A DNA stretch of 64,000 nt from Clostridia bacterium (GTDB taxonomy: Bacteria > Bacillota > Clostridia > Oscillospirales > Acutalibacteraceae): positions 1,953 to 65,952 of the forward strand of contig JAFRJB010000018.1 of NCBI GenBank assembly GCA_017432485.1. The letters are read 5' to 3'. Under the pieces are notes generated by a model, which was given only the letters and a program-made list of their open reading frames with translations, did no database searches and was not told the origin of the DNA. Position numbers and translations under genes: made by a program. Below, one piece after another: positions 55,395 to 61,554 of the stretch. Within the stretch, counting starts at the first letter, position 1, and the number at the start of each line of letters is the position of its first letter.

Positions 55395-55413
55395 GGATAA
55401 CTAACAATTATCT
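55395..55413 (+). promoter_or_regulatory. 19-bp dyad GGATAACTAACAATTATCT, copy 1, 16 nt upstream of the STAND-like gene
   Basis: Identical to the minus-strand sequence at 59927-59909 and similar to 61516-61534. Half-sites are GATAAY-N5-RTTATC. Confidence 0.65.
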
Positions 55414-59908: not shown

Positions 59909-59927
59909 AGATAATTGTTAGTTATCC
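59909..59927 (-). promoter_or_regulatory. 19-bp dyad GGATAACTAACAATTATCT, copy 2, in the 38-nt gap between the regulator stop and the ATP-grasp start
   Basis: The plus strand reads AGATAATTGTTAGTTATCC. It lies 18 nt upstream of the ATG at 59890 and 1 nt after the stop at 59929. Confidence 0.65.
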
Positions 59928-59928
59928 T

Positions 59929-61404
59929 TTAATAATTTATTTTGTAAACTCGATTTTTAGTCTTCCCTTCACATATGACTCTATCTTCATTAACCAATTC
60001 TAATAGATAGTCTTTTGTTCGAGAAATTCCAAGGTCAATTGCTTTAGCAACATCTATAGAAGTGGCAGATTCAATGGTAGAAAGGTATTCAAGAATCTGT
60101 TTTTTTCTTTTGTCAGATATTTTTTCCGCCGATTTTTTCCGCCGATTTTTTCCGCCGATTTTTTCCGCCGATTTTTTGTCGGCAAATTTTGTTAAATAAA
60201 GATATAATATAGATCTTTCCGGATTGAACTTTTCTTCAATCACGGGCAAAGTCCACTGCTGTTCATCCCAAACCCTAAAAATGTTCGGAATGCCACTACC
60301 GGCTCTTTCACCAACATCAATTAAACTAAACATCTTCATAAGCGTTGTGTTTCTTGGATCTGAAACACCGCCGATAACTACTTCTCTCGAATCCACTCTA
60401 AAGGTTCCCGGATTAGAAATGATAATACATTTAGGTCTTTTAACAACAACTATCCCTTGTCTACCATAATAATCGGCATTAATCAGGCAATTAGCCAAAG
60501 CTTCTCTCAAAGCTTTGTGAACAGGAGTATCTTCCACACGCAAGCCACTTTCTAATTTAAATGGGACTTTAATATCCTGTATTAATCTATTATAAACTCG
60601 AAAATAGAAATCAAAAACATTTCCGCTCCATTCACCGGAAGATGAAATGATACGATCAGTCCATCTATTATCTTGATCATACTGTTCCTGATAATCAAGA
60701 AAGTAATTACGAAATTCTCTTGTAATTTCGTACTCATTTCCAAACATTAATAATCCGGCAGCAGTGGGGTGAATATTTCCGTCTTCACCTCTACCCATAG
60801 CACCTATTCTCAACAAAAATGCGGAATCTTCAAGTGATTCCCAAACATGTCCCGGTCTGGCATATTTCATACGCATTCTATAACTATGAATAGTATCATA
60901 ATTAAACACATCTTCATTCATGCCTTCAAGAACAGTTAGATCATTCGTTTGAGCAGATGCATCTCGCAGCATTGCTTTCACTTCTTCTTGAGAACATTTA
61001 TAGTCACCATCACCATCTCTTCGATAGGTTCCGGTTAAAGGATTTCCATTGATATAAATTGGCTTGTCCGCCCTTTGAGCACGAGGGACAGAAATAACAA
61101 TAATATCTTTATTGTTAAATGTTATAACTTCAACATCTTTATTGGATAAAATGTTAATATTAACTTTACTTTGATTGTTAATGGTATTCCAAAAATCAGT
61201 TAAAATATGCTCCGCATCGTTTAACCCCACAATTTCAAATGATTTGTCAGCTTTCTCACAAACACCAAGTAAAATGGTTCCTCCTAAGGTATTTGCGAAA
61301 GAAGAATATGTCTCCCAAATGCTGTTAGGCAAACCGCCTTTAGCTTTTTTTGCTTCTAAACGGTTATTTTCTTTATACTGCTCTAAATTATCGAAATCAA
61401 TCAT
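59929..61404 (-). CDS. Schlafen/AlbA_2 domain, HATPase_c_4-like domain and C-terminal wHTH (putative transcriptional regulator)
   Basis: GGAGGAA lies 6 nt before the ATG at 61404 (MIDFDNLEQYKENNRLEAKKAKGGLPNSIWETYSSFANTLGGTILLGV). GSGIPNIF (HATPase-like). C-terminus ILEYLSTIESATSIDVAKAIDLGISRTKDYLLELV. Confidence 0.7.
   Translation of the reverse strand: MIDFDNLEQYKENNRLEAKKAKGGLPNSIWETYSSFANTLGGTILLGVCEKADKSFEIVGLNDAEHILTDFWNTINNQSKVNINILSNKDVEVITFNNKDIIVISVPRAQRADKPIYINGNPLTGTYRRDGDGDYKCSQEEVKAMLRDASAQTNDLTVLEGMNEDVFNYDTIHSYRMRMKYARPGHVWESLEDSAFLLRIGAMGRGEDGNIHPTAAGLLMFGNEYEITREFRNYFLDYQEQYDQDNRWTDRIISSSGEWSGNVFDFYFRVYNRLIQDIKVPFKLESGLRVEDTPVHKALREALANCLINADYYGRQGIVVVKRPKCIIISNPGTFRVDSREVVIGGVSDPRNTTLMKMFSLIDVGERAGSGIPNIFRVWDEQQWTLPVIEEKFNPERSILYLYLTKFADKKSAEKIGGKNRRKKSAEKISDKRKKQILEYLSTIESATSIDVAKAIDLGISRTKDYLLELVNEDRVICEGKTKNRVYKINY
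60120..60171. repeat. perfect 13-nt tandem repeat x4 (TTTTTTCCGCCGA; coding strand TCGGCGGAAAAAA) inside the regulator CDS, plus a degenerate fifth unit
   Basis: Counted base by base. CCGCCGA starts at 60126, 60139, 60152 and 60165. It encodes KKSAEKIGGKNRRKKSAEK, so each unit is read in a different frame. Confidence 0.9.
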
Positions 61405-61515
61405 TATAGATTCCTCCAATATATTTCTATTATTTATTTTAATATAAATTGGAAGCATTATCAATAATAAATTAAACATAAAGATTTTTAAACAAGTGGT
61501 GAGAATCGCAACTTG

Positions 61516-61534
61516 TTTTTTTAAGGATAACTAT
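61516..61534 (+). promoter_or_regulatory. 19-bp dyad GGATAACTATTTGTTATCT, copy 3, in the divergent regulator/decarboxylase-fusion intergenic region
   Basis: Perfect GATAAC-N5-GTTATC palindrome, 20 nt upstream of the ATG at 61555. Confidence 0.6.
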
Positions 61535-61554
61535 TTGTTATCTTTTATTAATGG

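What the first reader, a model, noticed from the sequence alone, without database searches (positions are those of the whole stretch)
60120..60171. Perfect 13-nt x4 tandem repeat inside the AlbA_2/HATPase/wHTH regulator: a frameshift-prone, phase-variation-like switch that would delete the DNA-binding domain
Seen in sequence:
- TTTTTTCCGCCGA is repeated four times without a mismatch, followed by a degenerate fifth unit (TTTTTTGTCGGCA).
- Thirteen is not a multiple of 3, so successive units are read in all three frames (KKSAE/KIGG/KNRR/KKSAE). The repeat is therefore maintained at the DNA level, not the peptide level.
- I translated the variants by hand. Three copies give ...KKYLTKEKNRFLNTFLPLNLPLL-stop. 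Five copies give ...KN I-stop. Both lose the C-terminal wHTH (ILEYLSTIESATSIDVAKAIDLGISRTKDYLLELV).

Established knowledge: tandem repeats whose unit length is not divisible by 3 are classic slipped-strand contingency loci.

Inference: copy-number slippage could switch the regulator, and hence the dyad-marked genes, ON or OFF within a population.
Basis: partly seen in the sequence, partly recalled or inferred. Interest (0 to 1): 0.65.

Follow-up and report, generated by a model that had tools for sequence, protein, structure and literature searches.

The report
Frameshift-prone repeat in Schlafen defence gene
A perfect 13-base repeat (four copies) encodes the floppy tether that joins a bacterial Schlafen-type anti-phage nuclease/ATPase to its DNA-binding tail; public assemblies hold versions of the same gene with two or three copies that lose the tail, but whether this is real switching or an assembly error could not be settled without raw reads.

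Summary
The repeat is real: 13 nt x 4.5 perfect copies at 60119-60177, found nowhere else in the 2.6-Mb genome. It lies in a 491-aa gene (59929-61404, minus strand). That gene is not a classical regulator. It is a prokaryotic Schlafen of the SLFN_AlbA_2 + GHKL ATPase + winged-helix class. The repeat encodes the disordered, lysine-rich tether just before the winged helix.

One, 4 or 7 copies stay in frame. All other copy numbers truncate the protein before the winged helix.

Relatives keep exactly four identical units, but the unit sequence differs between lineages. That points to concerted evolution at DNA level. 13/14-nt arrays fill this linker across the family.

Public metagenome assemblies hold 2-copy and 3-copy alleles on haplotypes otherwise identical to 4-copy partners. 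One is a 2-copy allele of this exact protein.

Three points weaken this:
- All ten 2-copy contigs I could trace come from one series of MEGAHIT assemblies.
- Only contractions occur.
- 0 of 77 species-representative genomes are frameshifted.

Verdict: a genuine slippage-homogenised frameshift hot spot. Programmed phase variation is unproven. The link to the dyad-marked genes is not supported.

The parts
60119..60177 (-). Perfect 13-nt tandem array. Coding strand: AAAAAATCGGCGG x4 (60126-60177) plus AAAAAAT. Encodes KKSAEKIGGKNRRKKSAEKI.
60179..60185 (-). Inverted copy of the repeat core (TTGCCGA), 7 nt before the first core (TCGGCGG). Candidate 7-8-bp hairpin with an A-rich loop.
   Evidence: MFE fold. 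In 8 lineage variants 91% of cells pair and 2 of 7 pairs change on both sides. Not a family-wide feature.
59929..61404 (-). 491-aa prokaryotic Schlafen gene (SLFN_AlbA_2 + GHKL ATPase + wHTH). Start ATG 61404 behind a GGAGGA site.
60994..61371 (-). SLFN_AlbA_2 (Schlafen nuclease) domain, residues 12-137, with E12-x4-E17-x-K19.
   Evidence: Pfam PF04326, E 8.1e-13. E12 and K19 invariant, E17 at least 90% conserved in 40 homologues. PDB 2KYY E 6.7e-11.
60229..60426 (-). HATPase_c_4 (GHKL-type ATPase) domain, residues 327-392.
   Evidence: Pfam PF13749, E 2.4e-8. Foldseek hits to histidine-kinase catalytic domains and 3LMM.
60121..60180 (-). Disordered tether, residues 409-428, encoded by the repeat.
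   Evidence: AlphaFold2: pLDDT below 50, no secondary structure
59938..60114 (-). C-terminal winged helix-turn-helix, residues 431-489. Lost in 2-, 3-, 5- and 6-copy variants.
   Evidence: AlphaFold2 pLDDT 77-91, H-H-H-strand-strand. Foldseek hits to Zalpha, AspA, MarR and CadC winged helices.
59910..59927 (-). Downstream dyad GGATAACTAACAATTATC, at the 3' boundary of the gene cassette.
61525..61542 (+). Upstream dyad GGATAACTATTTGTTATC, at or near the 5' boundary of the gene cassette.

Best explanation
The array is a DNA-level tandem repeat. It encodes the disordered, lysine-rich tether between the Schlafen-nuclease/GHKL-ATPase body and the C-terminal winged helix of a mobile prokaryotic Schlafen (pSlfn 'HisKinase-HTH' / Schlatpase-HTH) gene. 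It is the local form of a family-wide linker array built from 13/14-nt units, each an A-run plus a 7-8-nt core.

Shown: the units are kept identical within a gene while differing between lineages. This requires repeated gain and loss of units, or conversion between them.

Shown by arithmetic: because 13 is not divisible by 3, every one- or two-unit change shifts the frame. The result is a protein that ends inside the tether and lacks the winged helix.

Seen in public assemblies, but not confirmed at read level: alleles with 2 or 3 units on otherwise identical haplotypes.

Inferred: the site is a slipped-strand or unequal-exchange hot spot that occasionally turns the DNA-tethered form into a tail-less Schlatpase, which is itself a common natural architecture. 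Nothing shows that this is fast, reversible or selected as a switch.
For: 1. Reality and uniqueness of the array.

2. Concerted evolution. The window, L180/L181 and (judging from its identical peptide) P0011, which is only 73% identical in protein, carry TCGGCGG x4. L005, L006 and L182 carry TCGGCAG x4. L093 and L094 carry CCGACAG x4. L095-L097 carry CCGTCAG x4. All are perfect within the gene.

3. The same DNA unit is read in three frames.

4. Family-wide feature. 83 of 133 distinct linkers hold an array of at least 40 nt, against 0 of 133 control segments of the same genes. Periods are 27 (=13+14), 13, 14 and 30.

5. Frameshifted alleles.
- 14 protein sequences on 27 contigs end as 2-copy forms.
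- 3 sequences on 5 contigs end as 3-copy forms.
- 28 sequences on 70 contigs are full length.
- Each truncated form has a full-length twin.
- P0123 (421 aa) equals the predicted 2-copy product of the window's own gene.

6. L004 and L005 align over 7,295 nt with 0 mismatches and a single 26-nt gap. L012 and L095/L096 align over 2,045 nt with 0 mismatches and one gap.

7. MEGAHIT contigs with perfect 4-copy arrays exist (k87, k127, k141: L096, L093, L182). The assembler therefore does not always collapse the array.

8. In an unselected metagenome sample, the N-domain and the winged helix are out of frame in 4 of 73 loci. Three of these four (L062, L071, L082) clearly differ from relatives by the number of linker units.

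9. The tether is disordered and the winged helix is a separate, confident domain.
Against: - All 10 traceable 2-copy contigs are MEGAHIT 'k141_' contigs of one ENA accession series: ERZ27280254-489 (9 contigs) and ERZ27256887 (1 contig). Of 13 traceable 4-copy contigs, 12 come from other assemblies.
- Two different genes are 2-copy in ERZ27280330 and 4-copy, with zero other differences, in ERZ1024281.
- Only contractions were seen. No allele has 1, 5, 6 or 7 copies. The two observed sizes, 33 and 46 nt, are the ones that a de Bruijn loop collapse of a 59-nt array would give at k of 33 or less and at k of 34-46 (my arithmetic, not a test).
- 0 of 77 species-representative genomes have the two domains out of frame.
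- No read-level data could be obtained.
- Four copies of a 13-nt unit would, from general knowledge of repeat instability, slip far less often than classical long mono- to penta-nucleotide tracts.
Confidence: 0.5

Rival explanations
1. The array is stable at four copies in living populations. The 2-copy and 3-copy 'alleles' are assembly artefacts, caused by collapse of a perfect short-period loop in one assembly pipeline. The repeat is then only a homogenised low-complexity linker with no switching.
For: - Allele state tracks the assembly series almost perfectly. All 10 of 10 traceable 2-copy contigs lie in the ERZ272xxxxx k141 series, against 1 of 13 traceable 4-copy contigs.
- The strains are identical apart from the gap.
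- Only contractions occur, and they reach exactly the sizes predicted by small-k collapse.
- 0 of 77 GTDB representatives are shifted.
- The only 3-copy allele traced outside that series lies about 70 nt from a contig end (L071).
Against: - The same assembler returns perfect 4-copy arrays in L096 (k87), L093 (k127) and L182 (k141, neighbouring accession range).
- The array (59 nt) is far shorter than the final k (141) and than the reads needed for such a k. From first principles I could find no step that would join the flanks falsely.
- If L010's strain carried the imperfect array of its closest full-length relative L098 (about 97% identical over the gene, identical around the array), the units share only 13 nt. 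No k of 21 or more could collapse that array.
- Frameshifts at linker arrays also occur in unrelated assemblies of distant family members (L062, L082).
- Lineage-specific homogenisation requires that copy number does change in nature.
Confidence: 0.35
2. The array is a true contingency locus. It is maintained by selection so that a mobile Schlafen defence cassette can switch, reversibly and often, between a winged-helix-tethered form and a tail-less form or null.
For: - The unit length is not divisible by 3, and the array is perfect.
- Exactly four copies are kept in lineages whose unit sequences differ.
- About 31% of contigs in the close clade are out of frame, if the assemblies are taken at face value.
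- One recombinant haplotype is seen only as 2-copy (P0010) and 3-copy (P0130) forms.
- Tail-less Schlatpases are a common natural architecture: HisKinase alone 34.0% against HisKinase-HTH 19.2% (PMC13056530).
- Phase-variable defence genes such as R-M systems are an established precedent.
Against: - There is no read-level heterogeneity, no expansions and no evidence of reversal.
- Four long units are expected to slip rarely.
- Most family members use 13+14 = 27-nt pairs that keep the frame, so frameshifting is not the conserved property of the array.
- The artefact concern described above applies here too.
Confidence: 0.2
3. The repeated cores are a cis-acting nucleic-acid element. They could be a row of docking sites for the protein's own winged helix, or an mRNA/DNA hairpin system. 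Slippage would then be a by-product. This reading does not exclude the best explanation.
For: - The array travels with the winged-helix module. The recombinant L011 switches parent 15-25 nt upstream of the array.
- The second residue of the recognition helix tracks the core. ...SRT(K/N)DYL goes with TCGGC(G/A)G, and ...(S/T)QTK(D/G/E)YL goes with CCG(A/T)CAG.
- An inverted core precedes the array and co-varies with it: covariation score 0.44 against 0.25 in shuffles, reached by 1 of 500 shuffles.
- Earlier notes of this scan propose docking sites for relatives. These are leads only.
Against: - The motif does not occur at this gene's promoter, at the dyads or elsewhere in the window above chance. 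Five extra hits with 3 mismatches compare with 5.06 expected.
- A 13-bp spacing is not helically phased.
- The array and the winged helix lie less than 100 nt apart, so simple linkage explains their co-variation.
- The inverted head is not a family-wide feature: 12 observed against a permutation mean of 5.5 and maximum of 14.
- The fold z-score is only -1.64.
Confidence: 0.25

Closest known systems
Prokaryotic Schlafen proteins of the 'HisKinase-HTH' class (Perez Taboada et al., Nat Microbiol 2026, PMC13056530), also called the Schlatpase supradomain with C-terminal HTH (bioRxiv 10.64898/2026.05.29.728809); COG2865; PDB 3LMM and 2KYY
   Same: Same domain order: SLFN_AlbA_2 with the Ex4ExK motif, a GHKL ATPase and a short C-terminal HTH. 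The gene sits on mobile DNA among defence genes. Best structural matches are 3LMM and 2KYY.
   Different: Term searches of both papers (repeat, tandem repeat, linker, phase) found no mention of a repeat in the ATPase-HTH linker or of copy-number or frameshift alleles. No member of this clade has been tested for defence.
Simple-sequence contingency loci: coding repeats with a unit not divisible by 3 that switch genes by slipped-strand mispairing. Examples are the CTCTT repeat of Neisseria opa, the CAAT repeat of Haemophilus lic, and the AGTC/AGCC repeats of phase-variable mod genes of R-M systems (own knowledge).
   Same: A perfect tandem repeat lies inside an ORF, its unit length is not a multiple of 3, and it is read in all three frames. 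Assemblies contain frameshifted alleles. The gene is a defence gene, as in phase-variable R-M systems.
   Different: The unit is 13 nt and there are only 4 copies, whereas classical loci have 1-7-nt units and often 10-30 copies. The repeat sits at the 3' end, so a shift removes one domain rather than the whole protein. No expansions, no reversal and no within-population heterogeneity have been shown.
The TAEL (12-bp) repeat in the central conserved region of the type I R-M specificity subunit HsdS of EcoR124I/EcoR124II (own knowledge)
   Same: A short DNA repeat lies in the spacer between two modules of a defence protein. Its copy number changes by unequal exchange, and the same region is where modules are swapped.
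   Different: The TAEL repeat is in frame. A change of copy number there alters the spacing and hence the specificity, not the reading frame.

Membership tests
Prokaryotic Schlafen, HisKinase-HTH class (Schlatpase-HTH, COG2865) | N-terminal SLFN_AlbA_2 domain | tested here: met
   PF04326 E 8.1e-13, 49.4 bits against a cut-off of 25.3. 2KYY E 6.7e-11. Foldseek hits to SLFN13, SLFN5 and SLFN14 N-domains.
Prokaryotic Schlafen, HisKinase-HTH class (Schlatpase-HTH, COG2865) | Catalytic Ex4ExK motif of the nuclease | tested here: met
   E12-NNRL-E17-A-K19. E12 and K19 are invariant, and E17 is at least 90% conserved in 40 homologues.
Prokaryotic Schlafen, HisKinase-HTH class (Schlatpase-HTH, COG2865) | GHKL-type ATPase domain (PF13749) | tested here: met
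   PF13749 E 2.4e-8, 34.3 bits against a cut-off of 26. Foldseek hits to PhoQ, CusS, CckA and ThkA catalytic domains.
Prokaryotic Schlafen, HisKinase-HTH class (Schlatpase-HTH, COG2865) | C-terminal helix-turn-helix domain | tested here: met
   Residues 431-489 have pLDDT 77-91 and fold as three helices plus a two-strand wing. Winged-helix matches with TM-scores up to 0.91 normalised to the target.
Prokaryotic Schlafen, HisKinase-HTH class (Schlatpase-HTH, COG2865) | tRNA cleavage and phage defence | not testable with these tools
   Needs expression and phage assays. PADLOC gives only weak partial hits to pAgo-associated proteins.
Slipped-strand contingency locus (phase variation) | Perfect tandem repeat inside an ORF, with a unit not divisible by 3 | tested here: met
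Slipped-strand contingency locus (phase variation) | Copy number differs between otherwise identical strains | tested here: inconclusive
   Four against 2 copies with 0 mismatches over 7.3 kb and over 2 kb. Many twin pairs exist. However, all traceable 2-copy contigs come from one assembly series.
Slipped-strand contingency locus (phase variation) | Both gains and losses of units (reversibility) | tested here: not met
   Only 2- and 3-copy variants were seen beside the 4-copy form. No allele has 1, 5, 6 or 7 copies among about 100 contigs.
Slipped-strand contingency locus (phase variation) | Heterogeneity within one population at a high rate | not testable with these tools
Operator or docking array for the protein's own winged helix | The same motif recurs at the gene's promoter or other target sites | tested here: not met
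   There are no further copies near the gene. Hits with 3 mismatches are at the chance level.
Operator or docking array for the protein's own winged helix | The motif co-varies with the recognition helix | tested here: inconclusive
   SRT goes with TCGGC and (S/T)QT with CCG(A/T)C. The two lie less than 100 nt apart and are inherited as one module.
Programmed -1 ribosomal frameshift site | Slippery heptamer in frame plus a downstream stimulatory structure | tested here: not met
   A_AAA_AAU is in frame in unit 3 (read from the sequence). The only predicted hairpin lies upstream of the array, and nothing is predicted downstream. No Rfam match.

The most novel reading that the evidence does not exclude
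The 13/14-nt linker array is a selected, family-wide device of bacterial Schlafen defence cassettes. By gaining or losing units it toggles the protein between a DNA-tethered (winged-helix) form and a free Schlatpase form, which would be a domain-level phase switch. It also serves as the junction where DNA-binding tails are exchanged. The pure 13-nt clade in this window would be the version in which every single slip changes the frame.
Probability: 0.15. Interest if true: 0.8.

Novelty: new variant of a known kind. Interest (0 to 1): 0.5.

Why it matters
Bacterial Schlafens were shown to be anti-phage tRNases only in 2026, and the role of their very common C-terminal HTH is unknown. A DNA repeat could remove exactly that domain, and it is kept homogeneous at the junction in lineage after lineage. 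This would give a natural genetic handle on what the HTH does: compare 4-copy and 2-copy alleles. It would also extend phase variation of defence genes beyond restriction-modification systems and beyond short-unit repeats.

There is a practical side too. Part of the 'HTH-less' Schlatpase class in databases may be frameshifted HTH forms. If the rival is right, one large public assembly series systematically miscounts short tandem repeats. That would matter for anyone who mines those assemblies.

Tried and rejected
- Viral contigs. No array of this type was found.
- Plasmid collection. Only relatives below 43% identity, which are uninformative for this array.
- 100 related genomes. The gene is sporadic, with only two distant homologues, so no strain series was available.
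- Rfam. No match in or around the gene.
- Programmed frameshifting. Rejected, because there is no downstream structure.
- Inverted 'head' as a family-wide feature. Rejected: 12 observed against a permutation mean of 5.5 and maximum of 14.
- Motif at the promoter or at the dyads. Not found.
- NCBIfam gave no family. PADLOC gave only weak partial hits.
- Other tandem arrays in the suspect MEGAHIT contigs, sought as an internal control. None were long enough to be informative.
I therefore could not trace the 3-copy alleles P0130 and P0133, the 2-copy allele of the window's own protein (P0123), or the full-length partners P0124 and P0125.
Full report
**1. The observation**

Tandem Repeats Finder reports a period-13 array at 60119-60177 with 4.5 copies, 100% matches and score 118. 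TTTTTTCCGCCGA occurs four times, all at 60120-60171. The expected count is 0.30, and no shuffle out of 100 reaches four. The double unit occurs nowhere else in the 2.6-Mb genome.

The array lies in the minus-strand ORF 59929-61479. Homologues start at MIDF..., and a GGAGGA site precedes ATG 61404. The real gene is therefore 59929-61404, 491 aa.

On the coding strand the unit is AAAAAATCGGCGG. It is read as KKSAE-KIGG-KNRR-KKSAE-KI.

I rebuilt variants with 0-8 units:
- 1, 4 and 7 units stay in frame.
- 2, 5 and 8 units end in ...KNI*.
- 0, 3 and 6 units end in ...KKYLTKEKNRFLNTFLPLNLPLL*.

**2. What the gene is**

- Pfam finds SLFN_AlbA_2 (residues 12-137 of the 491-aa protein, E 8.1e-13) and HATPase_c_4 (327-392, E 2.4e-8).
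- The Schlafen catalytic motif Ex4ExK is present as E12-NNRL-E17-A-K19. E12 and K19 are invariant, and E17 is at least 90% conserved in 40 homologues.
- An AlphaFold2 model has mean pLDDT 62.8, so its domain arrangement cannot be trusted. It shows residues 409-428, the repeat-encoded peptide, as disordered (pLDDT below 50). Residues 431-489 form a confident three-helix, two-strand winged helix (pLDDT 77-91).
- Foldseek puts 3LMM and 2KYY first. Histidine-kinase ATPase domains, Schlafen N-domains and winged helices (Zalpha, AspA, MarR, CadC) follow.

This is the 'HisKinase-HTH' class of prokaryotic Schlafens. That family has anti-phage tRNase members (PMC13056530). It is also called Schlatpase-HTH (bioRxiv 10.64898/2026.05.29.728809).

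Term searches of both papers (repeat, tandem repeat, linker, phase) found no mention of a linker repeat. I found no paper that links bacterial Schlafens to phase variation.

The gene is thus better described as a defence-type nuclease/ATPase with a DNA-binding tail than as a regulator.

**3. The repeat is a DNA-level feature, and it is homogenised**

Close relatives (70-96% protein identity) all carry four units. The unit differs by lineage and is identical within a gene:

| Unit | Carriers |
|---|---|
| TCGGCGG | window, L180/L181; P0011 by its identical peptide (no DNA fetched) |
| TCGGCAG | L005, L006, L182 |
| CCGACAG | L093, L094 |
| CCGTCAG | L095-L097 |

A few arrays are slightly imperfect: L098, L013 and L183. 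A substitution can reach all four units only through repeated loss and gain of units, or through conversion. On evolutionary time the array therefore turns over.

The feature holds across the family. I examined 133 distinct linkers from two unselected samples: 80 metagenome loci and 80 loci from species-representative genomes, at 47-87% identity. Of these, 83 hold a tandem array of at least 40 nt at 85% or more self-identity. None of 133 control segments of equal length from the same genes does.

Most arrays alternate 13- and 14-nt units, which gives a 27-nt period and a 9-aa peptide such as GDKKSAIKI. Such arrays keep the frame when pairs of units are gained or lost. Twelve of the arrays, from several clades including this one, have period 13 as their best period.

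**4. Alleles with other copy numbers**

The ten 90%-identity clusters I expanded in the close clade, together with the other close-clade hits, give this tally:

| Form | Protein sequences | Contigs |
|---|---|---|
| Full length (4 units) | 28 | 70 |
| Ending as the 2-unit form | 14 | 27 |
| Ending as the 3-unit form (P0130, P0133, L071) | 3 | 5 |

Each truncated form has a full-length twin. P0123 (421 aa, on a 123-kb contig) is letter for letter the predicted 2-unit product of the window's own gene.

At DNA level, L004 (2 units) and L005 (4 units) align over 7,295 nt with no mismatch and one 26-nt gap. L012 and L095/L096 do the same over 2,045 nt.

In the unselected metagenome sample the N-domain and the winged helix are out of frame in 4 of 73 loci. 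Three of these four (L062, L071, L082) clearly differ from relatives by the number of linker units. In species-representative genomes the figure is 0 of 77.

**5. Why I do not accept these alleles at face value**

- All ten 2-unit contigs I could trace (L004, L010, L011, L012, L184-L189) are MEGAHIT 'k141_' contigs of one ENA accession series: ERZ27280254-489 (nine contigs) and ERZ27256887 (one).
- Of the thirteen traceable 4-unit contigs, twelve come from other assemblies and one (L182) comes from ERZ27252073.
- Two different genes are 2-unit in ERZ27280330 and 4-unit, with no other difference, in ERZ1024281.
- Only contractions occur. No allele has 1, 5, 6 or 7 units.
- By my arithmetic, a perfect 59-nt period-13 array collapses in a de Bruijn graph to 33 nt for k up to 33 and to 46 nt for k of 34-46. 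These are exactly the 2.5- and 3.5-unit sizes observed.

Arguments against an artefact:
- MEGAHIT contigs with perfect four-unit arrays exist at k87, k127 and k141 (L096, L093, L182).
- The array is much shorter than the final k.
- If L010's strain carried the imperfect array of its closest full-length relative L098 (about 97% identical over the gene, identical around the array), the units share only 13 nt and could not collapse at k of 21 or more.

I put real natural polymorphism at about one half.

**6. Mechanism and rivals**

My best reading has confidence 0.5. The array is a slippage or unequal-exchange hot spot that encodes a disordered tether. It is kept homogeneous by its own turnover, and it occasionally produces tail-less alleles.

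Reversal, expansions and within-population heterogeneity are all missing. Four long units should slip rarely. Most of the family uses frame-preserving 27-nt pairs.

The truncated product equals a common natural architecture: HisKinase alone makes up 34.0% of pSlfns and HisKinase-HTH 19.2% (PMC13056530). A slip therefore need not be a null mutation.

A cis-element reading (0.25, not exclusive) has some support:
- The recombinant L011 changes parent 15-25 nt upstream of the array, so the array and the winged helix move as one module.
- The second residue of the recognition helix tracks the core. SRT goes with TCGGC, and (S/T)QT goes with CCG(A/T)C.
- An inverted core precedes the first unit and co-varies with it. 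In 8 variants 91% of cells pair and 2 of 7 pairs show compensatory changes. The covariation score is 0.44 against 0.25 in shuffles, reached by 1 of 500 shuffles.

This reading also has weaknesses:
- The motif is absent from the promoter and from the rest of the window.
- The inverted head is not a family-wide feature.
- Linkage alone explains the co-variation.

Programmed frameshifting is rejected, because there is no downstream structure.

**7. The 'dyad-marked genes'**

GGATAAC-N4-RTTATC flanks this gene on both sides in relatives that have quite different neighbours.

Homology between the window and those relatives runs only from 59909 to about 61466.

Six contigs encode the identical 422-aa protein. 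Five have enough flanking sequence to compare, and their flanks are shuffled. Identity falls from 100% to the random level (about 0.3) at the two dyads.

The dyads are therefore the boundaries of a small cassette that carries the Schlafen gene. They stay the same while the recognition helix differs between lineages. This gives no support to the idea that this protein controls the dyad-marked genes.

**8. Earlier notes of this scan**

Several notes from other genomes describe repeat-encoded linkers in this family, and some propose docking sites. I used them as leads only. They pointed me to the two papers.

My own samples confirm the family-wide array. They do not confirm a promoter copy of the motif in this cassette.

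**9. Verdict**

This is a new variant of a known kind: a coding repeat that causes frameshifts, but with a 13-nt unit and four copies, placed at the 3' domain junction of a Schlafen defence gene.

I set interest at 0.5. The family-wide DNA repeat and the possible domain-level switch are unusual, and I found no description of them. The key claim, however, rests on assemblies that may be wrong.

Noticed in passing
window 59910-59927 and 61525-61542; L184-L189; L004/L005, L010, L012/L095, L013, L180-L182: The dyad GGATAAC-N4-RTTATC brackets the Schlafen gene in relatives with unrelated neighbours. Six contigs encode the identical 422-aa protein; the five with enough flank to compare show shuffled flanks, and identity falls from 100% to random at the dyads. 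Homology of the window to such relatives is limited to 59909-61466. This looks like a dyad-bounded mobile gene cassette. A third dyad at 55395 may bound the next cassette (STAND-like ATPase plus two ATP-grasp genes).
   Followed up: partly
window 60179-60185 with 60165-60171 (minus strand): An inverted copy of the repeat core lies 7 nt upstream of the first core and can form a 7-8-bp hairpin. In the window two of the pairs are G-U. The stem co-varies across lineages: CTGCCGA/TCGGCAG, CTGTCGG/CCGACAG, CCGACGG/CCGTCAG. The head could pair with any of the four cores. This could stabilise slipped intermediates or act at RNA level.
   Followed up: partly
L011 (P0010) against L098 and L093, alignment columns about 1269-1281: L011 is a recombinant allele. 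It is identical to the L098-type gene up to 15-25 nt before the array, and to the L093-type from there on (array plus winged helix). The tail and its array are exchanged as one module at this junction.
   Followed up: partly
P0135 (78 aa); 51-aa ORFs at L184:1698-1853 and equivalents: In 2-copy contigs gene callers predict the winged helix as a separate small ORF. In P0135 this ORF starts just upstream of the array in the shifted frame. Whether a free winged-helix protein is made is unknown.
   Followed up: no
recognition helix, residues about 455-463 of the 491-aa protein (window about 60016-60042) and homologues: The second residue of the predicted recognition helix tracks the repeat core. 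...SRT(K/N)DYL goes with TCGGC(G/A)G, and ...(S/T)QTK(D/G/E)YL goes with CCG(A/T)CAG. This fits Arg-G and Gln-A readout, but close linkage explains it equally well.
   Followed up: partly
P0139 (459 aa, 1.76-kb contig): This relative has a four-unit-like array followed by an unrelated C-terminus (...KKSAEKIQTENMRAEIKSAAEEPQNQDNGNV) instead of the winged helix. It is either another tail exchange at the array or a chimeric contig.
   Followed up: no
window about 61490-61522 (plus strand): A terminator-like hairpin AAACAAGT...ACTTGTTT is followed by a T-run. It lies between the Schlafen gene start and the upstream dyad, and faces the ATP-grasp/PLP-decarboxylase fusion gene.
   Followed up: no
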